NCBI GenBank assembly: GCA_963832145.1
Contig: CAWHTA010000011.1
Location: 281,451 to 345,450 of the forward strand
Reading direction: 5' to 3'
Origin: an uncultured Acidobacteriota bacterium
Lineage (GTDB): Bacteria > Acidobacteriota > Thermoanaerobaculia > UBA5066 > Gp7-AA6
DNA length: 64,000 bases
The notes below the pieces were generated by a model. The model did not search any database. It was not told the origin of the DNA and saw only the letters and a list, made by a program, of their open reading frames with translations. The stretch's first letter is position 1, and each line of letters begins with the position of its first letter. The position numbers and the translations under genes are program-made. Below are positions 5,642 to 50,651 of the stretch, one piece after another.

Positions 5642-6658
5642 ATGAAACGCTTTCGACCTCTCGTCCCGGCGCTCGCCGTCGCGCTCGCGCTCACCGCCGG
5701 CTCGGCCGTGGGCCAGGAGCCCGAGCCGACACCGACGCCCGCGCCGACCCCCTCGTCGGACGCGCGTCCGGTGACTTCCGAGCCGCTCTCACCCGCCCCG
5801 ACGCCGGGCGGACCGGGTGCCCCCGCGATCGCGCCGACGGCCATCGTCCTCGTCGCGGCGCCGACTCCGACGCCCGCGCCCCCCGTCCGCGTGACCGATC
5901 CGGCGGTCGTCGCGATTCTCCAGGCGCCGGGTGAGAACCCGTTCGGCCTCGTCGCCCAGGTCCCGGCGGCGGTTCCCCCGAAGCTGACGTTCGTCGACGG
6001 GATCGTCAACGCGACCCGGTTCGTTTCGGTCCGGGTGGACCGGACGGGCCGGCCGATGGGATCGCGCCCCGAACGCGACCCGATCCCGTCGCTCGCCGAT
6101 GAAGCGCAGAGGTCGTTCGCCAAGTGGACGTTCGATCCGGGCCGGAAGGGCTCGGAGCCCGTCGAGACGTGGGCTTCGCTCCGGCTCGATCTCACAGTCG
6201 AGATCGACACGCCGCGATCGGTTCAGGGCGTGCTCACTCCCGTCACTCCGGCAACTCCCGTTCCCCGGCCGCTCCTGTGGCCGGCGGACGAAGTCTGGCT
6301 CGAGGGCCGCAAAGCGACTCCGAGCGACGGAACGATCCCGCTCGAGACGCTCGACTCCCCGCCGATGCCGAAGAAGACGCCGTGGGACGCGGACTCCTAC
6401 AGGGGTCCGTTCTCGGCGAAATTCTGGGTCAAGGTGACGTCCAACGGCATCGTCGAAAAGGCCGTGCCTCTCGAAGCGAGCGACCCGGTGCTCATCGCCT
6501 ACCTGCGCCGCGCGATGGGCTCGTGGGCTTTCCGTCCCGCCCAGGCGAACGGCGCGCCCGTGGACTCCTGGAACGAGCTCGTCCTCTCCGGCCAGATCGG
6601 CTACGACATCGAGCTGAAGCAGATCGCGTCTCTGCGAAGGACGCTCTTCGGCTCGTAG
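5642..6658 (+). CDS. Hypothetical secreted protein, Pro/Thr-rich N-terminus, two TonB-C-like repeats (tentative)
   Basis: 338-aa ORF with signal peptide MKRFRPLVPALAVALALTAGSAVG. PTPTPAPTP low-complexity region. Two internally similar C-terminal modules (..FAKWTFDPG.. and ..MGSWAFRPA..). Confidence 0.6.
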   Translation: MKRFRPLVPALAVALALTAGSAVGQEPEPTPTPAPTPSSDARPVTSEPLSPAPTPGGPGAPAIAPTAIVLVAAPTPTPAPPVRVTDPAVVAILQAPGENPFGLVAQVPAAVPPKLTFVDGIVNATRFVSVRVDRTGRPMGSRPERDPIPSLADEAQRSFAKWTFDPGRKGSEPVETWASLRLDLTVEIDTPRSVQGVLTPVTPATPVPRPLLWPADEVWLEGRKATPSDGTIPLETLDSPPMPKKTPWDADSYRGPFSAKFWVKVTSNGIVEKAVPLEASDPVLIAYLRRAMGSWAFRPAQANGAPVDSWNELVLSGQIGYDIELKQIASLRRTLFGS

Positions 6659-6661
6659 GCC

Positions 6662-7399
6662 TTGACCGGCCACGGTCTCCCCTCGGCCCTCGCCGGGCAA
6701 CTCCGCCCGGAGTTCCCCTCCGAAGTCGATCGCACCCGCCTCCATCGAGGCCGGCTCGCGAGCCTGCTGACGTTTGTCGCGGGCGCGAACGCGATCGCCT
6801 TCGGGCGGCGCGTCTTCCTCTCGCGGTCGGCCTCCGCGTGCCTCGAGGGTGAAGCCGGGGACGCGTTCCGCCTTCTCGCTCACGAGCTCTCGCACGTCGC
6901 GCAGTACCGCCGGCACGGAGCCGCGATTTTTCTCGGACGCTACGTCGGCGAGTACCTGCGCGGCCGCTTCGACGGCCTCGACCATCGAAAGGCCTACCTC
7001 GCGATCTCGTTCGAGCGCGAAGCGGAGGGTCGGGCGCAGGCCTGCGTGGCGCGGCGCACCCGCCGGGTCCGGAGGCGAAGCGCAGGTCTAGGCGGCGTGG
7101 CCCGCTCCGCGAAGCAACTCGCGGAACCGCGGGTCGTCGCGGATCTTGTCGAAGAACGGGTAAACCTTCATCGGAACGAGGAAGCTCGCGCGATACGCGA
7201 ACGCTTTGTCGAGCCACTCGAAGGTGCCGTCGATGTCGTGGAGCGCGAGGTGGAGCTGCACCATCGCGACCATCGGCACGTAACCCGTCTTCGCGCGCTC
7301 CTTCATATCCGCGAGGATTCGCTCGGCGGCGGTCGTGTCGCCGGCCTGCAGCGCGCGCCAGAGCGAGACCGGCAAGCATCGTCGGGCTTCCGTTCGTGA
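6662..7399 (+). CDS. DUF4157-like putative zinc-metallopeptidase domain protein (3' end uncertain)
   Basis: N-terminal 130 aa match the DUF4157 pattern (..AFGRRVFLS.., LLAHELSHVAQ). The ORF only stops at 7399, after about 310 nt antisense to the kinase 3' end. The true stop is probably earlier, suggesting an indel. Confidence 0.55.
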   Translation: MTGHGLPSALAGQLRPEFPSEVDRTRLHRGRLASLLTFVAGANAIAFGRRVFLSRSASACLEGEAGDAFRLLAHELSHVAQYRRHGAAIFLGRYVGEYLRGRFDGLDHRKAYLAISFEREAEGRAQACVARRTRRVRRRSAGLGGVARSAKQLAEPRVVADLVEERVNLHRNEEARAIRERFVEPLEGAVDVVEREVELHHRDHRHVTRLRALLHIREDSLGGGRVAGLQRAPERDRQASSGFRS

Positions 7400-9391
7400 G
7401 CTCGTGCTCCCTCGGCGAACGCCTCCGCGGACTCCGTCAGCCGCCCGGCGCCATGGTAGGCGAGCCCGAGCCACAGGTAGGTCTGCGGGAAGGCGGCGTC
7501 CATCTCGATCGTGCGGCGAAGCTGATCGATCGCCTCGTCGTAGCGGCGCGCGACGTAGAACGCCCAGCCGTAGTCGCTGTTGATGATGAGAGACAGCGGA
7601 TCGAGCGCGAGCGCGCGCTCGTATTCGGCGATCGACTCCTCGAACCGTCCGAGCGAGCCGAGCAGGAATCCGTAGAAGCGGTGAGCGAGCGCGTACTCCG
7701 GATCGAGCTTGATCGCCCGCCGGAATTCGCTCTCCGCCTTCGACCACTCCCAGTCGAGCACCTCCGCATAGGCGAGGGACGCGTGGGCTTCCGCGAGGCG
7801 ATCGTCGATCTCGAGCGCTTTCCGCGCCGCGTCTTTTGCCTTCGGGCAGCCCTTCCCGCGGAGGGACCGCGGCGAAGCGATCCATCGCGAGAGCCGCCCA
7901 ACAGTCGGAGAGACCGGCCCACGCGAGCGCGTAGGCGGGGTCCTTCTCGATGGCCTGCTCGAAGTACTCGATCGCCTTCCGGATACTCGGCACCGTGCTC
8001 TTGTTCCAGTGAAATCGCCCCTTGAGATAGAGCGGGTATGCGTCCCGGTCCGCCGTATACCTCTTCGCGAGGCGTTTCTTGTGCTCCGGCTCGAGGGTCA
8101 CCTTCAGGTTCGACGAGATCTCGCGCGCGATCTCCTCCTGCACCGCGAGGAGGTCGGCGATCGGCCGGTCGTAGCGCGCCCCCCAGAGCCGGAAACCGTT
8201 CGAAGCGTCCACTAGCTCAACGCTGATGGCGAGCGATGAGCCGCGCGGCGTGACGCGTCCCGAGAGAACGGTCCCGACCCCGAGCTGGCGGCCGACGTCC
8301 TGGGGATCAGCGTCCCCCCGGAACCGGAACATCGTGCTCGTCGCCATGACCCGGAGACGGCGCAGCTGCGCGAGGTCGTTGATGAGGCTCTCGGTGATCC
8401 CCTCGGCCAGGTACTCCATCTCGGAGTCGCCGCCGGGATTCAGGAACGGGAGAACGGCGAGCGACTTCGAACGGGACGGCCGCTTCGCCGCCACGCGGAG
8501 CGGCGCTCCGGCCACGACCGTCGGCTCCGACGCTCCCGCGGACGCGAGGTCTCGGAGGAGGGGAACGAGCTCCGCCGCGGAGGCCGGTCGCTTCGCGGCG
8601 GCCTTCTCGAGGCACCGGGCGAGAAGGCGGTCGAGGTCCGGCGGAATGTCGGGGCTCACGAGCGAGGGCCGGGGCGGTTCGTCGCGAAGGATCGCGGCCA
8701 TCCTTTCGAAAGCGCTCGATCCGGTGAAGGCGGGCCGCCCGGCGAGCATCTCGTGGAGCACGCAGCCGAACGCGAAGATGTCGCTGCGGGCGTCGGCGGG
8801 CTCGCCGCGCACCTGCTCCGGCGCCATGTAGCCGACGGTCCCGAGCACCGTCCCCGGCCGGGTCGGGTCGGGCGTCGTCGGCACCGACGTCCCCTCGCCG
8901 CGCGACTCTTCTTCGACCCATCTCGCCAGCCCGAAGTCGAGGATCTTGATGCGCCCTTCGGTGGTGACGAAGACGTTGTCCGGCTTCAGGTCCCGGTGCA
9001 CGATCCCGCGCGAGTGCGCGGCGGCGAGACCCTCGGCGAGGTTCGCGCCGATCTCGGCGGCGCGCCTCCAGGGGAGCGGGCCCGGCGCAAGCGCGCCGCG
9101 AAGGGTTTCGCCGTGGAGCAGCTCGGTCACCGCGAACGAGACTCCGCCGTCGGCGCCGAAGTCGTAGATCGCGAGAAGGTTCGGGTGAGAGAGCGCCGCG
9201 ATCGCCCGGGCTTCGCGCTCGAACCTCGCGAGCGACGAGGGATCGTCCGCGAGGTGCTCCGGGAGAACCTTGATCGCCACCTCGCGGCCGAGCCGGAGGT
9301 CGCGCGCGCGATAGACCTCGCCCATTCCGCCGGCTCCGAGCGGCGCGAGGACCTCGTAGCGTTCGAGGAGGGTTCGCGAGCCGAGCGGCAC
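7088..9391 (-). pseudogene. Ser/Thr protein kinase with periplasmic TolB-N/CsgG-like module and TPR domain, interrupted by two compensating frameshifts
   Basis: GTG start 11 nt after the selB stop. Kinase motifs [31 protein letters not shown]. Then SLAVLPFLNPGGD and TPR repeats. The reading frame switches near 7845 into the frame of ORF 7303-7761 and back near 7375. The C-terminus ..DKIRDDPRFRELL is intact. Confidence 0.85.
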
Positions 9392-27003: not shown

Positions 27004-27363
27004 GGGGGCGAAACGGCTTCGACGGGGACGATTGCGCGAGAGGTTGCATGCCGAGGTTCACTCGCCTCGTAAAAAAGGGTGAAAAACAGTAGCTGCGAAC
27101 AACAGCAACTTCGCTCTGGCTGCTTAATTAAGTAGCCTCGTTAGCATGGTGAGCGTACCCGCCGCGCTCCGCGCTGACGTCGCGAAATGCGGGTGTAGCC
27201 GCTCCGGATCCCCGGACGGAGTGGCGAAACACATTCGGGGTTGCTCTTCCGCCGTTTTGCCTCTTCTCGAGGCGGTGGAGCGAGAAACAAGAAGAGGCTG
27301 AGCATGGAGTGGCCTCTCCCGTAGCGCTTCCGGACGCGGGTTCAACTCCCGCCGCCTCCACCA
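27004..27363 (+). ncRNA. ssrA: tmRNA (SsrA)
   Basis: 5' GGGGGCGAAACGGCTTCGACGGGG pairs with 3' ..CGCCTCCACCA, including a G3:U70 wobble. T-arm GGACGCGGGTTCAACTCCCGCC. Internal tag frame gct gcg aac aac agc aac ttc gct ctg gct gct TAA encodes (A)ANNSNFALAA at about 27092-27127. Confidence 0.95.
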
Positions 27364-31724: not shown

Positions 31725-32320
31725 GCCGCCGCGCCGCGGCGATCCTCCTGCTCGTGATGGGCGCCGCCGTAGCCGGCCTTCTCTACCTCACTCGATCGCC
31801 GTCGTCGACCACCCGCTCCCGGCGCTCCCTTCCGTTCCTCCGGGTCACGCCCGCGGCTGGAGTTGCGCCGGCGCCCTCGGGAACCGTCGTTCCGGTCGAG
31901 ACGGTGCGGGTGACGCTCTTCTTTGCAGACGCCCGGCTGGGGAAGCTCCATCCGGAAGAGCGAGACGTCCCGAAGCCCTCCGGACCGGGCGCCTACCTGC
32001 GCACGCTCTTCGACGAGCTCGCTCGCGGGCCGTCGCGGCCCGGGTTCGTGCGGGTAATCCCCCCGCGTCTGCAGCTTCGAAACGGATTTCTTCTCGCCAA
32101 CGGGGAAGTGGTTCTCGACCTCGCTGTCGACGCGAGCCTCTCGTTCGGGTCCGCGGAGGAGCTCTCGATCGTCGCGACGCTCGTCGACACGGTCCTGCAG
32201 AACGTGGCGAACACGAGAAGGGTGCGAATCCTCGTCAACGGCGAGCCGGTGGAGTCGCTCGGCGGCCACGTGGACCTGACGCGTCCGCTCTCGTTCGTTC
32301 GAAGCGAGCTCGCTTCGTGA
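31721..32320 (+). CDS. GerMN-domain protein
   Basis: ATG at 31721 overlaps the amidase stop (ATGA). TM anchor. ..VTLFF.D......E.R.VP........L.EL..GP.. and ..[17 protein letters not shown] pattern. Confidence 0.7.
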
Positions 32321-39963: not shown

Positions 39964-40038
39964 CGGGGCGTAGCGCAGCGGTAGCGTATCTGCTTTGGGA
40001 GCAGATGGTCGCCGGTTCGATCCCGGCCGCCCCGACCA
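39964..40038 (+). tRNA. tRNA-Pro (anticodon TGG), CCA encoded
   Basis: Manual cloverleaf: acceptor cggggcg/cgccccg, D arm gcgc-agcggta-gcgt, anticodon arm tctgc-tttggga-gcaga, T arm gccgg-ttcgatc-ccggc. Confidence 0.9.
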
Positions 40039-41707: not shown

Positions 41708-42094
41708 TCAGCTCGTCCGCTCGTAGATCGCCCGCACCATCGCGGCGAGCGTCATCGCGTCGAATGGCTTCGGGATCGCTTCGACCACTCCGAGATCCCG
41801 GTAATGCTCCAATTCATTCGCCTGTACCTTCGCCGTCATGAAGACGACGGGAGTCGAGCGCGTGGCTTCGAGCCCGCGCAGGCCCTGGAGCGTGGCGGGA
41901 CCGTCCATGCCGGGCATCATCACGTCGAGCAGGATGAGCTGCGGCCGAAAATTCGCGGCCGCTTCGACCGCTTCCGCCCCCGAGGCACAACTGCGGACCG
42001 TGAGGCCGCCGACCCCCTCCAGCGCGAAAGTCCCGATCGCTCGGATGTCGGGATCATCCTCGACGTAAAGAACCCGATCGAGCACGTCGCTCAT
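41708..42094 (-). CDS. Single-domain CheY-like response regulator
   Basis: 128 aa. VLYVEDDPD...LILLDVMMPGMDG...PVVFMTAK...KPF. Confidence 0.9.
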   Translation of the reverse strand: MSDVLDRVLYVEDDPDIRAIGTFALEGVGGLTVRSCASGAEAVEAAANFRPQLILLDVMMPGMDGPATLQGLRGLEATRSTPVVFMTAKVQANELEHYRDLGVVEAIPKPFDAMTLAAMVRAIYERTS

Positions 42095-44736
42095 CCGACC
42101 TGCGGCGTTCCGGCAAGGACGGACTTCACCGCCTCCACGAGCCCGGAGACCGTGGAGCGCGATTTGACGAGGACCGCCTGCGCGCCGCCGGCGGCCCCAT
42201 GGGGAATCTCGTGCGCGGAAAAGAAGACGAACGGGATGGGTCCGGCGGCCGCGCGTGCCAGCAGCGGCTCGAGCTCGAGGCCGGAACCGTCGGGCAACCC
42301 GACGTCGAGAACGACGACGTCGTAAGAGGCACCAGCCAGCCGCTCCCGGGCTTCGCGAAGCCCGCGAGCGACGTCCACGTCGGCAAATTCGGAGAGAGCG
42401 GCTCGCACGATCCTCGTCAGATCCGGGTCGTCCTCGACGTGGAGGATGCGGGCGCGCGACCCGTTGCCGGATTCCACGTGGACAATGCCGGGGCGCGGAG
42501 AGTCGGCGAGGACGGGAAGGTCGACCCGGAACGTCGTGCCTCGTCCGACCTCGGTCTCGAAGTCGACAGTGCCGCCGAGCTGCTCGACGATCAGCCGGGT
42601 GATCGCCAAACCCAGCCCGGTGCCCCCCTTCTGGCGAGTGTCCGAGGAATCGGCCTGCTGGAAACGGCCGAAGATCCGCGAGCGAAACTCCTCCGGAATC
42701 CCGGGCCCGCGATCATGGACTTCGAGCCGAACGATGCTCCCTCGCCGGCCCGCGACGAGGCGGACCGTTCCCCCCTTCGGGGAGTACTTGACGGCATTCG
42801 ACAGAAGGTTCGTCAGAACCTGAGTCATGCGATCCGCATCCGCCAGAATCCGAACGCCGGGCGCGTGGTTCTCGACCGTCAGTCCGACGCCAAACTGCTC
42901 GGCGTAGGCGCGATTGCCTTCGACAGAGGCCTCGAGGAGTGGCTCGAGCACCAATTCCTCCATTTGGAACTCGAGCCGACCCGCTTCGATTTTCTCCATG
43001 TCGAGGATGTCGTTGACCAGCCGCGCGAGGCGCTCGCAGTTCTTGAGGGCGATGTCGAGGAGGCCCTTCGCTTGCGCCGGGAGAATCCCCGCCGCGCCGC
43101 CGGTCACCAGCCCGAGCGCACCGCGTATGGACGTCAGCGGCGTGCGCAACTCGTGGCTGACCGTCGAGACGAACTCCCGCTTCAGCCGGTCGATCTCCTG
43201 GCGCTCGGAGAGGTCTCGGATCGCCCCGCCGAAGTGCCGACCGTCGGAAGTCCAGAACTCGAAGAGAGCCAGTTCGAAAGGAAAGATCGCCCCGTCCTTC
43301 CGGCGCCCCAGCGATTTGGTGGTGCCTCCCGTCAGACGATCCAGGCACATCTGGACATACGCCTCGGGAGAGACGCCTCCGGTCCCGGGCACGATGCGGG
43401 AGAGCGGTTGCCCGATCAGCTCGTCCCGACCGTATCCGAACAGTTTCTCGGCTGCCGGGTTGATGGATCGAATGTGCCCCGCGGCGTCGGTCGTCACGAG
43501 CGCGTCGAGCATTCCTTCGATGATCGACCGAGTCAGCGTTTCACTCGTCCGAAGCGAATCCGCGGCCCGCGCTCGATCGATGGCGAGCGCGATCGAGTCC
43601 GCAACCGTCGAGATCGCGTGGAGCTCGTACCCGGTGATCGGCTCTCTCGAAAACATCGCCACCACCCCGAGAGAGCGGCCGGCAACCATGAGCGGATGGC
43701 CGGCGAACGACACCATCCCCTGCTGCCGCGCCCAACCTTTGTCGCCCGGCTCGGGGACGAATTGAGTCAGGTCGATGATCCGAGGCACGCCTTCCTCTGC
43801 GATCCGTCCGATGCGAAACTCCCCCACCGCAATCCGATCGTGCGGGTCGGGAAGATTGACGCCGACGCCGGCCGTCGCGCGGCGCTCGAGCACGGGATCC
43901 TTGGGATGCTGGACCCAGATCGTCGCAGTTGCCGCTCCGAGGTGCTTCACCATTGCCGCCGCCGATGCCTCGAGAGCCTGCGGAAGGCTTTCGCTTCGCG
44001 TCAGCGCGGTCCCGACGTCCGCCGTGAATGTGGCGAGGCGGGCCTGCTCGGACAACGCGGCGGTCGACCGGCGGCGCTCGACGATGTCCCGGCCGACGAG
44101 GTAGTAAACAGCAAACAGAAAACCGAACTGGATCAGGACGCCGGCACCGAGAGCGACGAGCTCGATGATGGCCCAGCGGTTCCCGGCGTCGGTCTGGGCG
44201 GCCAGCTTCCGACCCTCTTCGGCGCGCATCCCGTTCAGGATCCGGTTGATCCGGGTCTTGAGCCTTTCGCCGTGCATCGTCGCCATCAGGGCGGCGGCGT
44301 CGTCTATACCTCGATCCCGCCGACGCTGCGCGACCTGCTCGACGAAGCCGATCTTCTGATCGAGAAGCGCCTCGAGGATCGGAATGGCCGCGAGGTGCCG
44401 TGGATTCCCGGCGGTGGTCTGTCGGAGCTCATGAAGGTGCGGTCGGAGCTTCGCGGCGGCCGCCTGGTACGCCGAAAAAAGGTTCGCGTTGCCGGTCACG
44501 ACGTAACCCCGTTGCGCCGCATCGAGCTCGGCGAGCAGCGCGGAAGTCTCGTCGATGATGCGGAGCACGTTGCGCGACTGACCGCGCCGGGCGGCACTCA
44601 GGCGAGATTGCTGGTCCGCCCAGTAGCTCCAGACGGCGAGACCGGCGACGAGGAGGAATGAAATTGCGAGTCCGAGTACGAGTCGCCTTTTCAGCCACCC
44701 GCCATCGCCCGACGCCTTCCCGGGCTCGCGCGTCAC
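42091..44736 (-). CDS. Hybrid sensor histidine kinase (CHASE3-TM-GAF-PAS-HisKA-HATPase-REC)
   Basis: Probable GTG at 44736, 4 nt after the upstream stop. CHASE3-like periplasmic region. SHELRTPL H-box. N/G boxes (..LLSNAVKYSP.., GTGLGL). C-terminal receiver ILHVEDDPD..VLDVGLPDG. Its stop overlaps the CheY start (ATGA). Confidence 0.9.
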   Translation of the reverse strand: MTREPGKASGDGGWLKRRLVLGLAISFLLVAGLAVWSYWADQQSRLSAARRGQSRNVLRIIDETSALLAELDAAQRGYVVTGNANLFSAYQAAAAKLRPHLHELRQTTAGNPRHLAAIPILEALLDQKIGFVEQVAQRRRDRGIDDAAALMATMHGERLKTRINRILNGMRAEEGRKLAAQTDAGNRWAIIELVALGAGVLIQFGFLFAVYYLVGRDIVERRRSTAALSEQARLATFTADVGTALTRSESLPQALEASAAAMVKHLGAATATIWVQHPKDPVLERRATAGVGVNLPDPHDRIAVGEFRIGRIAEEGVPRIIDLTQFVPEPGDKGWARQQGMVSFAGHPLMVAGRSLGVVAMFSREPITGYELHAISTVADSIALAIDRARAADSLRTSETLTRSIIEGMLDALVTTDAAGHIRSINPAAEKLFGYGRDELIGQPLSRIVPGTGGVSPEAYVQMCLDRLTGGTTKSLGRRKDGAIFPFELALFEFWTSDGRHFGGAIRDLSERQEIDRLKREFVSTVSHELRTPLTSIRGALGLVTGGAAGILPAQAKGLLDIALKNCERLARLVNDILDMEKIEAGRLEFQMEELVLEPLLEASVEGNRAYAEQFGVGLTVENHAPGVRILADADRMTQVLTNLLSNAVKYSPKGGTVRLVAGRRGSIVRLEVHDRGPGIPEEFRSRIFGRFQQADSSDTRQKGGTGLGLAITRLIVEQLGGTVDFETEVGRGTTFRVDLPVLADSPRPGIVHVESGNGSRARILHVEDDPDLTRIVRAALSEFADVDVARGLREARERLAGASYDVVVLDVGLPDGSGLELEPLLARAAAGPIPFVFFSAHEIPHGAAGGAQAVLVKSRSTVSGLVEAVKSVLAGTPQVG

Positions 44737-44740
44737 GCTC

Positions 44741-45385
44741 TCAGCCCAGATGCTTTCGGAGCAACTGCTCCAGTGATGGGAAATCCAGCGGCTTCGCCAG
44801 GTAATCGTCCGCAAGGAATTCCTTGTAGGCCTCCGCCTTGTACCGCGAGGCCGTATAGACCGAAGTCATGAGCACAACCTTCGTCGCCGAAGTTTGCGGG
44901 TCCGTCTTGATCCGGCGGCACATTTCGCGCCCGTCGAGCCCGGGCATGAAGACGTCCGCGAGGACGAGCTCCGGCTTGTACGCGACCGTCAGCGTCCATC
45001 CCTCCTCACCGTTGCTTGCGACGATTGCGTGGTAGCCAAGGCGCGTGATCCCGGCGATTGCAATTCTCACAATCTCTTTATCGTCGTCGACCACGAGAAC
45101 GAGCGGACGCTGAACGGAATCCACTTCGGCGTTCGCGGGAAGCTCCTCCGCGTGCCGGTGCTCGGCCGCGGCTCGGTCCCAGAGGTCTTGCGGCGCTCCC
45201 TCCCAGAGTTTCTGCTTGAAGGACTGAGGCGCTCTGCAGAAGCAGATTCCGCAATGCGGGCAGACGAGAGATCTCCGGCTGGTCAGGCAGGCGCACCACG
45301 CCGCCGGAAGCGCATCGAACGGTTGGCGGCAGCCGAAGCAGGCGACGATGTACGTCGCGGACGGCCCGCCCGGCAAGGATTGCAT
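44741..45385 (-). CDS. Response-regulator receiver with N-terminal 8-Cys zinc-finger-like domain
   Basis: 214 aa. CxxC-x11-CxC-x8-CxxC-x2-CxC (ACFGC..WCAC..VCPHCGICFC), then REC (LVLVVDDDKE...LADVFMPGLDG...VVLMTS...KP). Confidence 0.8.
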   Translation of the reverse strand: MQSLPGGPSATYIVACFGCRQPFDALPAAWCACLTSRRSLVCPHCGICFCRAPQSFKQKLWEGAPQDLWDRAAAEHRHAEELPANAEVDSVQRPLVLVVDDDKEIVRIAIAGITRLGYHAIVASNGEEGWTLTVAYKPELVLADVFMPGLDGREMCRRIKTDPQTSATKVVLMTSVYTASRYKAEAYKEFLADDYLAKPLDFPSLEQLLRKHLG

Positions 45386-45619
45386 CGGGTGTGCTCATCC
45401 TACGCCTTCGAGACCGACGTTCACACCGCGTCGCGGATGGATGGCTCACTTTTCCCTGTAAGTCGCACTGCATCAAGAGGCAGCGGCGTCAGCGGCTCGC
45501 GCACGTTCGCACTTCACCGTTTCGCAATGAGCGAAACGAATGGCGCTGCGCTCGCCGCTTAGAATCCGGCTTCCGCCGCGGCGCTCGGGCTGTCGGCGCA
45601 ACGACGCAACGGAGGCCAC

Positions 45620-46102
45620 GTGACCAATCGAGAGTTGTTCCTGAAGTTCTGGGAACGGGAGCAGGGGAAGTTCCAGCGGATGCTCGACGCCGTTCCGGCC
45701 GAACGCGGCGACTACCGGCCGCATCCAAGGTCGCGTACGGGCGCCGAGATGGTCACGCTCCTCGCGCGGGAGCAGGAGATCCTCTGCGGAATGTTCGACA
45801 GTGGCGAAATCGACCTCCGGGATTTCGGCGCCGATCCGATCGACGACATGCGCGCACTCTGGAAGAAGAGCACGAACGATTTGAGGGAGCGTCTCGGGAA
45901 ACTCGATGACAACGGCTGGAAGAGGCCGGTCAGGTTTCTGCTGGGCGGCAAGGTCGCCAACGAGCAGCCCGCGAGCGAGTGGCTCTGGGCATTCCTCCAC
46001 GACATGATTCACCACCGCGGCCAGCTCTCGACGTACATCCGCCCGATGGGTGGCAAAGTCCCGTCGGTTTACGGACCGTCCGCGGACGCGGCGCCCGAAT
46101 AA
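45620..46102 (+). CDS. DinB-family (four-helix bundle, His-triad) protein
   Basis: 160 aa with GTG start. ..HDMIHHRGQLSTY.R..G pattern typical of DinB/YfiT-like proteins. Confidence 0.75.
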   Translation: MTNRELFLKFWEREQGKFQRMLDAVPAERGDYRPHPRSRTGAEMVTLLAREQEILCGMFDSGEIDLRDFGADPIDDMRALWKKSTNDLRERLGKLDDNGWKRPVRFLLGGKVANEQPASEWLWAFLHDMIHHRGQLSTYIRPMGGKVPSVYGPSADAAPE

Positions 46103-46159
46103 AAAGGGGAGAGCGTCGGGCGCCTCACGGCGCCCAACGCGGGATTCCTGTTGACGCCT

Positions 46160-46697
46160 CTACTGGACGGCCCGGAAGGGAAGGTTCAACCGGAACGAAT
46201 CGATGCCGACAGTCGCCGCGGTCCCGTAGACGCCGCGCACCTCGGGCATCGTGTTACAGGCACCCTCCTGCCCGTCGCCGTAAGCGACCCGCAGCGAAAG
46301 AGGCGACAGAACTTCCTGGCCGACGGGGTAGTACAGCAGGTTGCCGACGCGCGTGCCTTCCGCGAACATCGAATAGTGCGGGAAGGTAGCGAGGCCCGCT
46401 GCAGTTCGTCGTCAAGTAGTAAACGTAGATCGCTTCGGAGTCGAAGATTCCGAGACCCGTGTGGACGTAGAAGCTCACCCACTGATTGTTGATCTCACGC
46501 GCGACCAGGTTCTCGGTCACCGTATAGCCAACGAGCGAGCCGTGCCGGTCGATCACGCGGAAGGGGCGATTGCCGGCCGGCGGCACGGCGTAGGCCAACG
46601 AGGAAGTCAGAAGCAACCCGACGATGAAAGCCACCGCGGCGCGCCGGCGATTCTTTCGGCCGCAGTTTCGCAAACCAATGAGAACCCTTGCAGACAT
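46160..46697 (-). pseudogene. Small secreted protein, unknown family, paralog 1 (1-nt insertion near 46379)
   Basis: Start MSARVLIG.. has GGAGG 7 nt upstream. Signal peptide ..LLLTSSLAYA. The frame of ORF 46254-46763 joins ORF 46160-46369. Dropping one base in cccGcac restores YLPHYSMFAEGTRVG, against YLPHSSMFAEGTRVG in paralog 2. Confidence 0.75.
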
Positions 46698-46751
46698 TCC
46701 CAACCTCCCCTTATTTTTTGCGGATGCGCTGAACGCTCTTTGATCAAGACT

Positions 46752-46767
46752 TGCACCTTTCAAGCCA
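46752..46767 (-). promoter_or_regulatory. Sigma-54-type promoter (-24 TGGC / -12 TGCA) for paralog 1
   Basis: Minus strand reads TGGCTTGAAAGGTGCA. GG and GC are spaced exactly as in the consensus TGGCACG-N4-TTGCW. It ends 54 nt upstream of the ATG. Confidence 0.65.
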
Positions 46768-47075
46768 GTCGCAGCGAAAACACGATTTCTTCGTTGGGAA
46801 GGCTCGCATTGCTTTTCGAATGAGATGGAAGCGCTCGATTACTCGTCACGGAACCGCAAGCCCGACCAGTTCGACTAAAGTCTAGGAAGGGAGGGTAATA
46901 TTTAATCCGCTCAGGATTTATTCACCTGGACGACGGTAGGGAGCGATCGGCGGCAGGTCCGCGGCACGATGCTGCGAGAATCGAGTTGCGGGGAGATCCT
47001 CGATCCTTTTTGTCGGCTCCCTACCGCTTTCCGCCGCCGGCTCCCTGCCGACACGAACTCTCTGCGCCGGCGGCT

Positions 47076-47609
47076 TTATTGAACGGCCCGGAAGGGAAGG
47101 ACCAGGCCAAGCGGCTCGAGGTTCATCGTCGCGGTGGCTCCATAGACTTCCGCGATACCGACCGAGGCATAGCAGGGTCCTTCCTCTCCGCTTCCGTAGA
47201 CCACCCGGTGCGATTGAGGAGTCAGAACCTGCTGGTCCGCGGGGTAATACAACCGGGAACCGACCCGCGTGCCTTCCGCGAACATCGAAGAGTGGGGGAG
47301 GTAGCTACCGCCGCTGCAATCCGTGGTCGTGTAGTGCAGGTAGATCGCGTCCGAATCATAGATCCCGAAGGCTGCGTGAACGAAGAAGCTCACCCAAGTG
47401 CCATTGATCTCTCGCGCAACCAGGTTTTCGGTCACTGCGTGGCCCACCAGCGTCCCGTTCCTGTCAATCACTCGGAACGGACGACTGGTGGAGGGCGGCG
47501 CGGCGTGCGCCAGTGACGACGTAAGGACCAGGATCACAAGAGACGCCGAGGCTGCGAGACGATTCGTCTTACAGAAGTCCTGCGAAGCCATCTCACCCCG
47601 TGCACGCAT
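47076..47609 (-). CDS. Small secreted protein, unknown family, paralog 2
   Basis: Start MRARGEMASQ.. has GGAGG 7 nt upstream. Signal peptide ..LVLTSSLAHA. About 60 percent identical to paralog 1 by eye. Shared PFRVIDR.G.LVG..VTENLVAREIN..WVSF.VH, two conserved Cys, and C-terminal LPFRAVQ. Confidence 0.75.
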   Translation of the reverse strand: MRARGEMASQDFCKTNRLAASASLVILVLTSSLAHAAPPSTSRPFRVIDRNGTLVGHAVTENLVAREINGTWVSFFVHAAFGIYDSDAIYLHYTTTDCSGGSYLPHSSMFAEGTRVGSRLYYPADQQVLTPQSHRVVYGSGEEGPCYASVGIAEVYGATATMNLEPLGLVLPFRAVQ

Positions 47610-47660
47610 TTCGCGACCTCCAGTTTTCGGTGATGGATCACACATCCGCGAACGCCCAAA

Positions 47661-47676
47661 TGCACCTTTCAGGCCA
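47661..47676 (-). promoter_or_regulatory. Sigma-54-type promoter (-24 TGGC / -12 TGCA) for paralog 2
   Basis: Minus strand reads TGGCCTGAAAGGTGCA, 15 of 16 positions identical to the paralog 1 element. It ends 51 nt upstream of the ATG. Confidence 0.65.
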
Positions 47677-47872
47677 GACCGCTCACATGCTTTTTCGGAA
47701 CGGCGGGATTGCCTTTCTAATCAGGAGGTAACGATCGGATAGACAGGGCACGACCGCGTGGTTCGAGAACGGTCTGGATTCACCGGAAGCGACGATTCCG
47801 AATCGAATAGCTGAGCTCGGCCCAGTGTCCGTGCGATCCCACTAGAATGCACCGAGACAGAGAGGTAACCCC

Positions 47873-48802
47873 ATGACACACGTTTCTCGACCGCGGCTGA
47901 TCTGCGCTCTCGCACTCTTCGTCGCGACTCGACTGCTCACCGCAGAGGACACTTCCAGCCGGCCGCGCGTGGCGGTACTCGAGTTCAAAAACAAAGTTCA
48001 GGGCTACGGATGGTCCGGATACAAGGCCGGCCAGGCCGCGCAGGACATGCTCGTCACGGAGCTCGTGAGGAAAGGAACCTACCGGGTCATCGAGCGTGAG
48101 CAGTTGGAAGAGATTCTGCGGGAGAAGAATCTCACGCTCGCCGGTGACATCGACCCGAAGACCGCGGTGAAGGTCGGGAAGATGCTCGGGGTCGAATACC
48201 TGATCACGGGTGCGGTGACCGAAATGGGAGTCGCCAACCGCGGCGCGAACGTGCCGGGACTGTTCGGGCGCCTCCCGTCCGTGAATGTGCGGAGCCAGAA
48301 GCTCGACGCCGCTCTCGATGCACGGGCCTTCTCCACCTCCACCGGCGAGATCGTATGGGCCGACACCGCGGCGGAATCGACGTCCGACTCCAGCGTGTAC
48401 GTGCACGGCGCCGGCGGCGGCGTCGAGGACCGCGGCAAGCTCGACCGGATCCTGCGGCCCGTCGTCGTCAAGCTCGCCGACTCCCTCGGCCGGAAGAAGC
48501 TCGCGACGAGTGGACTCGGCGGCACAGCGGATGCGTCCGGCATCGTCGGCAAGATCGCGAAAGCCGGCGGCGGTGCGATTTACGTCAATGTCGGCTCTGA
48601 GGCCGGAATCAAGGATGGGGACGAGTTCGACGTCTTCCGCATCGCCGACGAGATCAAGGATCCGGACACCGGCGAGGTCCTCGGAGCGAACGAGGTGAAG
48701 GTCGGTCGAATCAAGATCCTTGCCGTGCGGGGCGCGCGCCTTTCCTCCGCAGTGGTCGTTTCCGGCAGCGGCTTCAAACCCGGCGACGTCCTCAAGAACT
48801 AG
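47873..48802 (+). CDS. CsgG/HfaB-family secretion-channel-like protein with C-terminal beta-sandwich extension
   Basis: 309 aa with a signal peptide. RVAVLEFKNK...AAQDMLVTELV..G.Y.VIEREQL..IL.E..L......D..TA.K.GK.LGV.YLI.G.VTE core typical of CsgG-like proteins. Confidence 0.75.
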   Translation: MTHVSRPRLICALALFVATRLLTAEDTSSRPRVAVLEFKNKVQGYGWSGYKAGQAAQDMLVTELVRKGTYRVIEREQLEEILREKNLTLAGDIDPKTAVKVGKMLGVEYLITGAVTEMGVANRGANVPGLFGRLPSVNVRSQKLDAALDARAFSTSTGEIVWADTAAESTSDSSVYVHGAGGGVEDRGKLDRILRPVVVKLADSLGRKKLATSGLGGTADASGIVGKIAKAGGGAIYVNVGSEAGIKDGDEFDVFRIADEIKDPDTGEVLGANEVKVGRIKILAVRGARLSSAVVVSGSGFKPGDVLKN

Positions 48803-48814
48803 CGCCCCGTTCTT

Positions 48815-48851
48815 CTCCCTCTCCCCTCCGGGGAGAGGGTCGGGGTGAGGG
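48815..48851 (-). repeat. REP family 1 copy (inverted orientation)
   Basis: ctccctctcccctccggggagagggtcggggtgaggggc, just after the CsgG-like stop. Confidence 0.8.
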
Positions 48852-48900
48852 GCGTTCGCGCCGAAGCGTTCCTTCTTCGGTTTGTTCGATAATCGACCCG

Positions 48901-48978
48901 CTGCCCGTAGCTCAGCCCGGACAGAGCAACGGCCTTCTAAGCCGTGGGTCGCAGGTTCGAATCCTGCCGGGCAGACCA
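48901..48978 (+). tRNA. tRNA-Arg (anticodon TCT), CCA encoded
   Basis: Manual cloverleaf: acceptor ctgcccg/cgggcag (C1-G72), D arm gctc-agcccggaca-gagc, anticodon arm acggc-cttctaa-gccgt, T arm gcagg-ttcgaat-cctgc. Confidence 0.9.
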
Positions 48979-48983
48979 GCTCC

Positions 48984-50651
48984 CTATCGCACGCCCGAGA
49001 CCGTCTTCCCTCCCAGGTACGCCCGCGCTTCGGTGAGCTCGGCACGCGCGCCATCGGCCCTCGCGAGAAGCGCGACGAGCTTCTCGTAGAACCCGCGCGC
49101 CGCGGGGCCGTCGCCAGAAAGACGCGCGGCGCGCGCCGCTCCGTAGAGGCCGTTCAAGCGGTTTGGCGACGCCGCCAGTTCGGCCCGGTACTCGACAAGC
49201 GCCTCGGCGGGCCTTCCGAGCTCGAGGAGCAGATCCCCCAACTGTTCGCGCGCCGGAAGGATCGGGCCCGGCGTTACCGGGTGCTTGTCCGTCGACTGCT
49301 CGAGCGCCGCGGCGGATCGCATGAGGCCGACCGCTTCCGCATCCCTCTTCTCCGACCGCGCCAGCCAGGCGGCCGACTCGAGTCGAGTGATCTCGACGGT
49401 GTCTGCCCAGAATGCGTTTCCGGCGTTCTTCAGGGAGTCACGAAGCTTTTCGAGGCGTTCCACCTCCGTGCGCGCCGCAGCAGCGTTTCCGCTGCGCGCG
49501 AACCCGGTCGCCCGCGCGAAGACCACCGTTGCCTCGGTGTAGGGGAACTTGCCCCACGGAAAGGTCGCGGGCCGAAGCGCGATCGAAGTTGCCGCGCCCC
49601 AATCTCGCCGCTCGAGCGCGAGGCGGGCCGGAATGGCGCTCAGGGCATACGCGGCAGCGAAGTTCTCCTTGTCGAACGTCTCCGCGCGGGCCGCGTCCTC
49701 GAGCACCTTCCTCGCCTCCCCGTCCCGGCCGGCCTGCAGGTATGCGTACGCGAGGTAGTCCATCGCGTGCAGCTCGTCGAAGGACCGCGCTCCGGGCATC
49801 GAACGCTCGACGTCCTTCCGTGCGGCGGTGGCCGAGTCGATGTTCGACCGGATGGAGTCCTCCCACAGTCCGAGCCGCGTGAAGATGTGCGACGGCATGT
49901 GGAGCGCGTGGGGCGAGTCCTGCGCGATCTTCGAGTAACGCCGCGCGGCGTCGAGGCCCCGATCCGCGAGAGTCGGGAAGTCGTAGCTGTGAATGATGTA
50001 GTGCGCGACTCCCGGGTGCTGTGGCATCTCGCGAAAGATCGGCCCGAGAATCTCGCCCGCCTTCTTCGGGCGCTGATACGTCTTGTCCGGAGGCAGCGCG
50101 AGAGCGACACCGTTCAAGGTCAGTGCGTACGAGATCCTCGCCTCGCGATCATCGGGATACTTCGCGGCGAGATCGGCGATCGCCTTCTCGTAGGCAAGAA
50201 AGCGAGTGACGTGATCGACGGTCTCGGAGTCCCGGAAATAGACCGCGAGCGCCTCGATCCAGTCGCTCTCCCGCTTCGTCTTCCGGGACGCCGCGCGAGC
50301 CGCCTCGATCGCCGCCGCGCCCGCCTTTCGGTCGTCCGGTGGAGGCGCGTACCAGATCTGGTGGAAGTGGCTCATCGCGACGCCCCAGTGCGCCATCGCA
50401 CAGCCGGGGTCGGAGGCGGCGATCGCGGCGAAGGCCTTCTCCGACTTCGCATACCAGAACGAGTGGAGCATCGCGAGGGCCGAGTCGAATTTCTTCTGCG
50501 CCGCAGGGCCGCAGGAAATCGGGAAATGGACCTTCCCGAGCTTGGTCGGGTCCCCTTCCTTGTGGTCGTGCCCGGTATCGGCCGTTGCCGGGCGGGCGCC
50601 GGAAATCAGAAGCGCAAGGAGTGGAATCGCAAGGGTTCTTGTTCGGTACAT
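48984..50651 (-). CDS. Secreted TPR-like repeat protein (function unknown)
   Basis: Real start is MYRTRTLAIPLLALLISGARPATA (ATG 50651). The rest of the 1304-aa track ORF upstream is antisense shadow of ptrB. Helical-repeat composition with several conserved His (HMPSHIF). Confidence 0.7.
   Translation of the reverse strand: MYRTRTLAIPLLALLISGARPATADTGHDHKEGDPTKLGKVHFPISCGPAAQKKFDSALAMLHSFWYAKSEKAFAAIAASDPGCAMAHWGVAMSHFHQIWYAPPPDDRKAGAAAIEAARAASRKTKRESDWIEALAVYFRDSETVDHVTRFLAYEKAIADLAAKYPDDREARISYALTLNGVALALPPDKTYQRPKKAGEILGPIFREMPQHPGVAHYIIHSYDFPTLADRGLDAARRYSKIAQDSPHALHMPSHIFTRLGLWEDSIRSNIDSATAARKDVERSMPGARSFDELHAMDYLAYAYLQAGRDGEARKVLEDAARAETFDKENFAAAYALSAIPARLALERRDWGAATSIALRPATFPWGKFPYTEATVVFARATGFARSGNAAAARTEVERLEKLRDSLKNAGNAFWADTVEITRLESAAWLARSEKRDAEAVGLMRSAAALEQSTDKHPVTPGPILPAREQLGDLLLELGRPAEALVEYRAELAASPNRLNGLYGAARAARLSGDGPAARGFYEKLVALLARADGARAELTEARAYLGGKTVSGVR

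What the first reader, a model, noticed from the sequence alone, without database searches (positions are those of the whole stretch)
46160..48802. AT-richer islet: two paralogous small secreted proteins of unrecognised family, divergent from a CsgG-like channel gene
Two ORFs of about 175 aa (46160-46697 and 47076-47609, minus strand) are roughly 60 percent identical. They share a signal peptide (..LTSSLA(Y/H)A), a core PFRVIDR.G.LVG..VTENLVAREIN..WVSF.VH, two conserved cysteines and an identical C-terminus LPFRAVQ. I cannot place them in any family I know. They lie in DNA that is visibly less GC-rich than the flanks, each with its own GGAGG RBS and its own sigma-54-type promoter. The distal copy is divergent from a CsgG/HfaB-like outer-membrane channel gene (47873-48802). 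A tightly regulated cargo-plus-channel module (surface fibre, adhesin or exported effector) is an attractive hypothesis, but it is inference only.
Basis: partly seen in the sequence, partly recalled or inferred. Interest (0 to 1): 0.7.

Follow-up and report, generated by a model that had tools for sequence, protein, structure and literature searches.

The report
Orphan secreted protein pair, sigma-54 promoters
Two neighbouring genes encode small exported beta-sheet proteins of a family that matches no known protein family or solved structure, each driven by its own conserved sigma-54-type promoter; the CsgG-like gene next door is only a neighbour in the closest relatives, so this is not a cargo-plus-channel system.

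Summary
Two paralogues lie on the minus strand (47076-47609 intact; 46160-46697 with a 1-nt frameshift). They are 62% identical and have signal peptides, two conserved Cys, GGAGG ribosome-binding sites and the only two TGGC-N8-TGCA (-24/-12) motifs in the 64-kb window. They sit in its lowest-GC stretch. The family is real and under purifying selection (dN/dS 0.15-0.36). About 100 clusters exist, all "hypothetical", all from Thermoanaerobaculia/Acidobacteriota metagenomes. There is no Pfam, NCBIfam, PHROG or PADLOC match. A confident AlphaFold model (pLDDT 95.6) of the 141-aa all-beta domain has no Foldseek neighbour in PDB or BFVD. An exhaustive profile search found about 200 distant relatives. 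In some, the same domain is the C-terminal end of collagen-like or fibre-repeat proteins. The sigma-54-type motif is conserved upstream of 39 of 82 distinct homologues (0.026 expected per region). The cargo-plus-channel idea is not supported. A CsgG-like gene lies upstream in only 6 of 65 informative loci, all close syntenic relatives. The most frequent neighbour is a convergent DinB gene (28 of 65). The function is inferred: a sigma-54-induced exported binding or structural "head" domain.

The parts
47076..47609 (-). Copy B: intact gene, 177-aa precursor. Signal peptide residues 1-36 (window 47502-47609). Mature 141-aa all-beta domain at 47079-47501.
   Evidence: ORF and sequence. 83 homologous clusters. 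dN/dS 0.145 against the L026 orthologue. AlphaFold2 model pLDDT 95.6, pTM 0.88.
47661..47676 (-). -24/-12 (sigma-54-type) promoter-like element of copy B, TGGCCTGAAAGGTGCA. It ends 51 nt upstream of the ATG.
   Evidence: One of only two matches in the window. Invariant in alignments whose flanks diverge. The motif recurs upstream of homologues.
47705..47732 (-). Conserved upstream box (GTTACCTCCTGATTAGAAAGGCAATCCC), about 30-70 nt upstream of the -24 element. Candidate activator or IHF site.
   Evidence: Conserved between both window copies, L003, L007, L026 and L027. The function is inferred.
46160..46697 (-). Copy A: paralogue with a +1 frameshift. 178 aa after repair; 62% identical to copy B.
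   Evidence: The orthologues are intact (P0010 in L026, and L027).
46380..46382 (-). Frameshift site: a CCC run on the coding strand where the L027 orthologue has one base fewer (CTTCCCGCAC against GTCCCGCAC in L027).
   Evidence: Could be a sequencing or assembly indel, or a recent inactivating mutation. This could not be decided here.
46752..46767 (-). -24/-12 (sigma-54-type) promoter-like element of copy A, TGGCTTGAAAGGTGCA. It ends 54 nt upstream of the ATG.
   Evidence: The same 16-mer precedes the A-type orthologues in L026 and L027.
46805..46832 (-). Conserved upstream box of copy A (GCTTCCATCTCATTCGAAAAGCAATGCG).
47873..48802 (+). Divergent neighbour: CsgG-family (PF03783) protein, 309 aa, with a weak FlgT_C-like C-terminal domain. 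The evidence shows no functional link to the paralogues.
   Evidence: Pfam 1.7e-27, partial model coverage 6-161 of 210. Weak LpoB, FlgT_M and FlgT_C hits. No PDB sequence hit. Present next to family genes in only 6 of 65 loci.
48901..48978 (+). tRNA-Arg(tct), directly after the CsgG-like gene. It bounds the locus.
45620..46102 (+). Convergent DinB-family gene. The most frequently conserved neighbour of the family (syntenic marker).
   Evidence: Pfam DinB 7.3e-08. Found 48-82 nt downstream in the seven CsgG-positive loci listed; present downstream in 28 of 65 loci with enough downstream sequence.

Best explanation
The two ORFs are tandem paralogues of a previously undescribed protein family. 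In its core form the family is confined to soil Thermoanaerobaculia (Acidobacteriota).

Each gene is a monocistronic unit. It has a conserved upstream box, a -24/-12 (sigma-54-type) promoter, a leader of roughly 40 nt (estimated from the motif-to-ATG distance), a GGAGG site, and a precursor with a Sec-type signal peptide cleaved after AxA. The mature product is a 141-aa compact all-beta domain with one superfamily-invariant Cys pair, probably a disulfide.

Expression would therefore be off by default. It would be switched on by an unlinked bacterial enhancer-binding protein in response to a specific signal. The product acts in the periplasm or outside the cell.

In distant relatives the same domain is the C-terminal end of collagen-like and fibre-repeat proteins. 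The most likely role is therefore a ligand-binding or self-assembling 'head' module: an envelope, matrix or surface component rather than an enzyme. In this lineage it is used as a free-standing protein.

The CsgG-like gene is an accidental neighbour, present only in the closest relatives. Copy A is either a very recent pseudogene or carries an assembly indel.

Shown: paralogy, family extent, purifying selection, promoter-motif conservation, lack of known relatives, and lack of conserved CsgG adjacency. Inferred: export, disulfide, sigma-54 dependence, and the binding or structural role.
For: - Paralogy: 62% identity, E = 2e-74.
- Family extent: 83 core clusters at 45-93% identity, all hypothetical, from Thermoanaerobaculia/Acidobacteriota MAGs. 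There are several loci per MAG. 20 of 93 loci hold two tandem copies.
- Purifying selection: dN/dS 0.145 for copy B and 0.25-0.36 for copy A. Neighbours are 0.09-0.21.
- No known family: Pfam and NCBIfam; PHROGs only through collagen segments of 2-3 distant members; PADLOC none; PDB sequence profile only spurious CBS hits.
- Fold: pLDDT 95.6, pTM 0.88, 13 strands. No Foldseek neighbour in PDB (best E 0.33, TM at most 0.24). None in BFVD (best E 0.029, TM 0.16 for that hit).
- Superfamily: 209 proteins at E<=1e-3 in the exhaustive search. D13, C62 and C110 are invariant.
- Architectures of distant relatives: signal peptide plus domain; a Cys-containing N-terminal module plus collagen triplets plus domain (P0099, P0173); fibre repeats plus domain (P0174); two or three tandem domains (P0096, P0121).
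- Promoter: the only two TGGC-N8-TGCA matches in the window are the two upstream sites. TGGY-N8-TGCW occurs in 39 of 82 distinct upstream regions against 0.026 expected per region. Other paralogue groups carry YGGTGC-N5-YYGCA. The motif stays invariant while the flanks diverge.
- No sigma-70-like promoter in 45500-49000.
- No CsgG link.
Against: - No experimental data exist on transcription, export or function.
- SignalP could not be run. The signal peptide is judged by eye: basic n-region, 17-residue hydrophobic core, AxA.
- About 15 of 82 homologue upstream regions show no -24/-12-like motif.
- No enhancer-binding protein (GAFTGA motif) is encoded in the window or in any of the 95 loci. The activator is unknown.
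- The 'head domain' role rests on the architecture of a handful of distant relatives at 24-38% identity.
The Cys-Cys distance and the topology could not be inspected.
Confidence: 0.55

Rival explanations
1. The paralogues are cargo (fibre subunit, adhesin or effector) exported across the outer membrane by the divergently transcribed CsgG/HfaB-like channel.
For: A divergent arrangement with a Pfam CsgG-family gene is present in the window and in L007, L026, L027, L030, L031, L035 and L037. The paralogues have signal peptides, as curli subunits do.
Against: - Adjacency is found in only 6 of 65 informative loci. All are the nearest relatives in one syntenic block. CsgG-like identity is 87-96% in the three aligned loci (L007, L026, L027).
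- All more distant family members lack it.
- No csgE/F-like genes are present. The CsgG-like gene is monocistronic before a tRNA.
- Its Pfam match stops at model position 161 of 210. There are weak LpoB and FlgT hits, and no lipobox.
- The paralogues have no internal repeats. They are predicted to be compact, Cys-paired globular domains. From my own knowledge, CsgG passes unfolded, Cys-free, Q/N-repeat curlins through a constriction of about 1 nm.
Confidence: 0.06
2. A sigma-54-induced periplasmic stress or homeostasis protein. It would work like ZraP, Spy or CpxP: a small periplasmic protein made on an envelope or metal signal that binds client proteins or ions.
For: Small size, a signal peptide, a dedicated sigma-54-type promoter and no operon partners. 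From my own knowledge, E. coli zraP is likewise a monocistronic sigma-54-dependent gene for a small periplasmic protein.
Against: - The fold is all-beta, whereas ZraP, Spy and CpxP are helical (my own knowledge).
- No conserved His, Cys, Asp or Glu cluster suggests metal binding. Only D13, C62 and C110 are invariant.
- The domain's presence at the tip of collagen-like and fibre proteins fits an extracellular role better.
- No adjacent two-component bEBP system is present, unlike zraSR.
Confidence: 0.15
3. A secreted antagonistic or interaction protein, of the bacteriocin, lectin or phage-decoy type, that evolves fast under biotic pressure.
For: - The family protein diverges faster than its neighbours. 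In L027 the family gene is 83% identical while the CsgG-like gene is 89% and DinB 91%. In L026 copy A is 87% and the CsgG-like gene 96%.
- Copy number varies between close relatives: B only in L007, A only in L027, both in the window and L026.
- The genes are multi-copy and tandem.
Against: - dN/dS is well below 1.
- No immunity-like small gene is consistently adjacent.
- No hits in phage or plasmid collections.
- No toxin-domain similarity.
Confidence: 0.12
4. The conserved TGGC-N8-TGCA element is not a sigma-54 promoter. It would be an operator for another regulator or part of a leader RNA, and the genes would be transcribed by a sigma-70-type or ECF holoenzyme.
For: - The central GAAAG and the flanking bases are also conserved, which is more than a -24/-12 promoter needs.
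- The -12 region reads GTGCA rather than TTGCA in this subgroup.
- No bEBP is nearby.
- Some homologues lack the motif.
Against: - GG-N10-GC spacing is strictly kept in three divergent motif versions. One of them is the near-canonical TGGTGCCGAGGTTGCA.
- The position 50-55 nt upstream of the ATG in the window fits a promoter.
- No sigma-70-like -35/-10 is detected in the region.
- No Rfam element is found.
Confidence: 0.15

Closest known systems
Curli (CsgA/CsgB with the CsgG channel) and holdfast anchor (HfaA/HfaD with HfaB)
   Same: A Sec-exported small protein is encoded next to a Pfam CsgG-family gene in divergent orientation.
   Different: There are no Q/N-rich imperfect repeats and no internal repeats. 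The domain is predicted globular with a Cys pair. There are no CsgE/CsgF partners. The CsgG-like protein lacks a lipobox and matches only part of the model. Adjacency is not conserved.
ZraP (E. coli): a small periplasmic protein from a sigma-54 promoter
   Same: A monocistronic gene for a small exported protein behind a -24/-12 promoter. This is a regulatory analogy only.
   Different: There is no sequence or fold similarity. This domain is all-beta whereas ZraP is helical (my own knowledge). No adjacent sensor kinase/bEBP pair is present.
C-terminal globular heads of bacterial collagen-like proteins (e.g. the C1q/TNF-like domain of BclA) and phage tail-fibre tip domains
   Same: In distant relatives the domain follows a collagen GXY stalk or fibre repeats at the extreme C-terminus (P0099, P0173, P0174). 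Those N-terminal parts hit tail-fibre PHROGs.
   Different: Foldseek finds no C1q/TNF jelly-roll or tail-fibre tip neighbour in PDB or BFVD. The core family has no stalk and is free-standing. No relatives were found in phage collections.

Membership tests
Curli-type cargo/channel system (CsgA-like subunit plus CsgG) | The subunit is built of imperfect Q/N-rich repeats forming a beta-solenoid amyloid. | tested here: not met
   Profile-profile comparison of thirds and halves of the domain shows no internal repeat. The model is a compact 13-strand domain. The sequence has no Ser-X5-Gln-X4-Asn-type repeats.
Curli-type cargo/channel system (CsgA-like subunit plus CsgG) | Conserved genomic linkage of the subunit gene with csgG and the accessory genes csgE/csgF. 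| tested here: not met
   A CsgG-like gene is adjacent in 6 of 65 loci only. No further genes sit in its transcription unit, and tRNA-Arg follows it.
Curli-type cargo/channel system (CsgA-like subunit plus CsgG) | CsgG is a lipoprotein with the full CsgG domain, including the transmembrane hairpins. | tested here: inconclusive
   The Pfam CsgG match (96.5 bits) covers model positions 6-161 of 210. The only N-terminal Cys is in the context R-L-I-C, which is not a lipobox. No PDB sequence match is available to align the hairpins.
Sigma-54-dependent gene | A -24 GG and -12 GC separated by 10 nt (TGGCAC-N5-TTGCW-like), at promoter distance from the start codon. | tested here: met
   TGGCCTGAAAGGTGCA and TGGCTTGAAAGGTGCA end 51 and 54 nt upstream of the ATGs. 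They are the only two matches in the window. The motif is conserved in 39 of 82 distinct homologue upstream regions against 0.026 expected per region.
Sigma-54-dependent gene | Dependence on RpoN and on an enhancer-binding protein with a cognate upstream activating sequence. | not testable with these tools
   No GAFTGA-type bEBP is encoded in the window or in the 95 loci. A conserved upstream box exists, but its role is unknown.
Sec-exported protein with a type I signal peptide | Basic n-region, hydrophobic h-region, and small residues at -3 and -1. | tested here: met
   By inspection only. Copy B..KTNR LAASASLVILVLTSSLA-H-A | APP. Copy A..RRR AAVAFIVGLLLTSSLA-Y-A | VPP. The pattern is conserved in the alignment. 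SignalP is not available. The RR pair is not conserved, so a Tat signal is unlikely.
C1q/TNF-like or other known collagen-head / tail-fibre tip folds | Structural similarity of the globular domain to a known head fold. | tested here: not met
   Foldseek with the pLDDT 95.6 model: no hit with E<=0.001 in PDB or BFVD; TM at most 0.25.
Any curated protein family (Pfam, NCBIfam, PHROGs, PADLOC) | A significant HMM match of the domain itself. | tested here: not met
   Only collagen and tail-fibre hits appear, and those come from the N-terminal parts of 2-3 distant members.

The most novel reading that the evidence does not exclude
The 141-aa domain is a new all-beta fold. It is the terminal 'head' of a class of bacterial collagen-like or fibre surface proteins. 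Thermoanaerobaculia have released it as free-standing, multi-copy secreted proteins. These are switched on by sigma-54 and an unknown enhancer-binding protein, giving an inducible extracellular binding or matrix component in an uncultured soil lineage.
Probability: 0.3. Interest if true: 0.55.

Novelty: categorically new. Interest (0 to 1): 0.4.

Why it matters
If the reading holds, this is a protein family and probably a fold with no described relative. It is common in soil Thermoanaerobaculia, a lineage known almost entirely from metagenomes. It is also tied to a clear regulatory signature, which gives an entry point to a sigma-54 regulon in Acidobacteriota. The link to collagen-like fibre proteins suggests an unstudied kind of bacterial surface or matrix module.

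The novelty is at the level of family and fold only. No new mechanism has been shown. Orphan secreted families are common in poorly studied phyla, so the interest is moderate.

Tried and rejected
1. First AlphaFold run with only the core family (A1): pLDDT 62, and its PDB fold search was meaningless. It was superseded by the run with 110 diverse sequences.
2. PDB sequence-profile search: only short spurious CBS-domain hits on the VVD..G..VG motif.
3. Internal-repeat test for a beta-trefoil or propeller-like origin: negative.
4. The 174-aa gene upstream in L001 as a hidden paralogue: hhalign probability 0.5%, rejected.
5. Viral contigs, phage and plasmid collections: no relatives. The A3 alignment was too diverse for the locus scan.
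6. Rfam on 45000-49500: only tRNA-Arg, and no leader RNA family.
7. Search for a local bEBP by the GAFTGA, ESELFG and Walker motifs: none.
8. Neighbour clustering across 95 loci. Recurrent neighbours were DinB, the tRNA, a response regulator with SIR2, and a Ser/Thr kinase. ORF calling was noisy in this high-GC DNA, and no functionally telling partner emerged.
9. Second and third homologue searches with alignments. They returned mostly the core family or almost nothing, probably because the word prefilter was swamped. No informative names came back.
10. Cluster look-ups of 20 distant relatives: all unnamed or 'hypothetical', from metagenomes only.
11. Literature searches (Thermoanaerobaculia with sigma-54; Acidobacteria with RpoN, regulon, secreted): nothing relevant.
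12. Horizontal acquisition as the explanation of the low GC: weak. GC3 of the genes is 0.72-0.84 against 0.79-0.90 in the neighbours, and the dip is mostly intergenic.
Full report
**1. Observation**

The minus strand of 46160-47645 carries two related reading frames.

- Copy B (47076-47609) is intact. It has ATG at 47609, a GGAGG about 8 nt upstream, and TAA at 47076-47078.
- Copy A (46160-46697) starts at ATG 46697 behind GGGGAGG, but it is split over two frames.
- Compared with the intact L027 orthologue, the window has one extra base in a C run (coding strand CTTCCCGCAC against GTCCCGCAC; window 46380-46382).
- Removing that base gives a 178-aa protein reading YLPHYSMFAEG. This matches the intact orthologues P0010 (locus L026) and L027.
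- The two proteins are 62% identical over 164 aa, E = 2e-74.
These are the signal peptide ending LTSSLA(H/Y)A, the core motif, two Cys, and the C-terminal LPFRAVQ.

The stretch 46160-47872 has GC 0.597 against 0.679 for the window. It is the lowest 1.7-kb stretch in the 64 kb. The dip is mainly due to the two long intergenic regions (0.56). GC3 of the genes is only slightly lower than in the neighbours, so this is not a strong signal of foreign origin.

TGGC-N8-TGCA occurs exactly twice in the window on either strand, at 46752-46767 and 47661-47676. Both are on the minus strand and end 54 and 51 nt upstream of the two start codons (0.56 expected).

The divergent gene 47873-48802 matches Pfam CsgG (1.7e-27).

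**2. The family**

Neither paralogue hits Pfam or NCBIfam at E<=1.

The word-indexed search found 83 clusters at 45-93% identity. All are unnamed or 'hypothetical', and those with an organism name come from Thermoanaerobaculia.

In the species-representative genome set, 19 loci were found in about 10 MAGs of Thermoanaerobaculia, Acidobacteriota or 'gp7', often 2-3 loci per MAG. The metagenome scan added 66 loci. Twenty of 93 loci hold two tandem copies.

The genes are under purifying selection:

| Gene | dN/dS |
|---|---|
| Copy B vs L026 | 0.145 |
| Copy A (repaired) vs L026 | 0.36 |
| Copy A (repaired) vs L027 | 0.25 |
| CsgG-like neighbour | 0.09-0.13 |
| DinB neighbour | 0.14-0.21 |

So these are real coding genes that evolve somewhat faster than their neighbours.

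Copy content differs between close relatives. L007 has only the B type, L027 only the A type, and the window and L026 have both.

**3. The wider superfamily and the fold**

The exhaustive profile search over 1.84 billion representatives gave 209 proteins at E<=1e-3. Twenty-three were at E<=1e-10.

The distant members are 24-38% identical and share the whole domain of about 135 aa. D13, C62 and C110 (mature numbering) are invariant. G20, G46, G64, S97 and the C-terminal P-F are nearly invariant.

Most are signal peptide plus domain. Some have other architectures:

- P0099 has a Cys-containing N-terminal module, about 40 collagen GXY triplets, then the domain.
- P0173 has another N-terminal domain, collagen, then the domain.
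- P0174 has NTAIG-type fibre repeats, then the domain.
- P0096 and P0121 have two or three tandem domains.

Pfam recognises only the collagen repeats. PHROGs hit only these N-terminal parts, as tail-fibre families. PADLOC gives nothing. Twenty distant members looked up are all unnamed metagenome proteins in clusters of 1-5 sequences.

With only the core family, AlphaFold gave a poor model (pLDDT 62). With 110 diverse sequences, the 141-aa mature domain of copy B is modelled at pLDDT 95.6 and pTM 0.88, with 13 beta strands and no helix of four or more residues.

Foldseek found no neighbour with E<=0.001:

- PDB: best E 0.33, TM at most 0.24.
- BFVD: best E 0.029, TM 0.16 for that hit.

**4. Regulation**

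Alignment of the two window upstream regions with that of L007 shows CTGGC(C/T)(T/C)GAAAGGTGCA invariant while the flanks diverge. A second conserved box lies about 30-70 nt further upstream.

Across all loci, TGGY-N8-TGCW lies within 350 nt upstream of the mature-domain start in 39 of 82 distinct upstream regions. The background is 0.026 per region, and that background already includes these sites.

Other paralogue groups carry TGGTGCCGAGGTTGCA or (C/T)GGTGC-N5-YYGCA. These keep the GG-N10-GC spacing of sigma-54 promoters. About 15 regions show none.

No sigma-70-like promoter is found in 45500-49000, and no Rfam element other than a tRNA.

No enhancer-binding protein (GAFTGA) is encoded in the window or in any of the 95 loci. 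The activator must therefore be unlinked.

Sigma-54 dependence is thus well supported as a sequence inference, but it is untested.

**5. The CsgG question**

tblastn with the window's CsgG-like protein against all loci finds it next to a family gene only in L007, L026, L027, L030, L031, L035 and L037.

- That is 6 of the 65 loci with at least 1.3 kb of upstream sequence.
- All have family proteins most similar to the window (62-92% identity).
- All lie in the same syntenic block: S9 peptidase, TPR, [tRNA-Arg], CsgG-like, family gene(s), DinB, LysM/YkuD and so on.
- The CsgG-like proteins are 87-96% identical in the three loci aligned (L007, L026, L027).
- L007, L030 and L031 are probably one population.

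The equivalent slot elsewhere holds a TPR gene plus YCII (L003-5, L008) or an integrase island (L006). Paralogous loci sit next to a response regulator and SIR2, or next to other genes.

The most frequent neighbour is a convergent DinB gene, in 28 of 65 loci. That is best read as inherited synteny.

The CsgG-like gene itself is monocistronic, and tRNA-Arg(tct) follows at 48901-48978. It matches only model positions 6-161 of 210, with weak LpoB, FlgT_M and FlgT_C hits. Its only N-terminal Cys is in an R-L-I-C context, which is not a lipobox. It has no PDB sequence match.

From my own knowledge, the CsgG pore passes unfolded, Cys-free, repeat-built curlins. A compact domain with an invariant Cys pair is a poor candidate cargo.

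The cargo-plus-channel hypothesis is therefore not supported. Only adjacency was tested, not genome-wide co-occurrence.

**6. Most likely mechanism**

Each gene is an independent, normally silent unit. An unlinked enhancer-binding protein, possibly acting through the conserved upstream box, would activate sigma-54 holoenzyme at the -24/-12 element. The precursor is exported by Sec and cleaved after AxA. The 141-aa beta domain folds in the periplasm with a C62-C110 disulfide.

The same domain caps collagen-like and fibre proteins in distant relatives. I therefore consider a ligand-binding or self-associating head module of the envelope, matrix or surface the most likely role.

Rivals are a ZraP-like periplasmic stress protein, a fast-evolving antagonistic or interaction protein, or a conserved motif that is not a sigma-54 promoter at all. 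None can be excluded with the tools at hand. The steps of export, disulfide formation, sigma-54 dependence and function are inferences.

**7. Comparison with the known, and novelty**

The closest analogies are these:

- Curli and holdfast systems, by neighbourhood only. Their defining features were tested and not met.
- ZraP, by regulatory logic only.
- The globular heads of collagen-like proteins and tail fibres, by domain position in distant relatives only. The fold was tested and not met.

The family belongs to no curated family and has no structural neighbour, so at the level of family and fold it is new. At the level of system or mechanism, nothing new has been demonstrated.

Interest is moderate (0.4). 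It is a clean, conserved, regulated orphan family with a confident model and no known fold relative. But it is one of many uncharacterised secreted families in uncultured phyla, and the attractive module hypothesis falls.

Noticed in passing
window 46380-46382: Copy A carries a single-base insertion in a C run (coding strand). The orthologues in L026 and L027 are intact. It is either an assembly indel or a very recent pseudogene. Copy A also has N in place of the nearly invariant D of the DCSG motif, and a higher dN/dS (0.36).
   Followed up: partly
window 48901-48978 (+): tRNA-Arg(tct) lies 98 nt after the CsgG-like gene. The same tRNA appears near family genes in about 17 other loci. The slot between the tRNA and the family gene is variable: CsgG-like, TPR plus YCII, or an integrase island in L006 at 6590-7543.
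   Followed up: partly
window 47705-47732 and 46805-46832 (-); L003, L007, L026, L027: A conserved box (TTACC..CT.ATT.GAAARGCAAT) lies about 30-70 nt upstream of the -24 element. It is a candidate activator or IHF site.
   Followed up: partly
L006, L010, L011, L012, L015, L016, L018 (upstream of family genes): More distant family members share GCGGCGGCCTCAGC 20-35 nt upstream of the -24 element. They also share a conserved leader of about 100 nt (CGGATGT..., ...CACATGTCRGCAAACGAAGACCARAAGGCGGGC). Some gene callers translate part of it as an N-terminal extension (MSANEDQKAG...). It may be a regulatory leader.
   Followed up: no
window 44741-45385 (-) and 42091-44814 (-): A response-regulator receiver protein with a Cys-rich N-terminal extension (CFGC...CPHCGICFC, zinc-ribbon-like). 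Its gene overlaps the start of the ORF for a large hybrid histidine kinase. This pair is not conserved next to the family in other loci.
   Followed up: no
L028 5603-5950 and 6001-6693: A distant relative (P0266, 230 aa) is preceded by a second gene whose product ends in PPFTVR, the family's C-terminal hallmark. Tandem pairs therefore recur outside the core family. No -24/-12 motif was found there.
   Followed up: partly
window 27004-27363, 32242-32318, 39964-40038: tmRNA (tag ANNSNFALAA), tRNA-Val(gac) and tRNA-Pro(tgg) are found elsewhere in the window.
   Followed up: no
P0099, P0101, P0107, P0114, P0147 (distant relatives): A recurrent N-terminal module, (Y/H)ACVxxxxGxxRIVxxxxxCxxxExxxxW, precedes the collagen stalk or the domain. 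It has no Pfam match and is itself an undescribed element.
   Followed up: no
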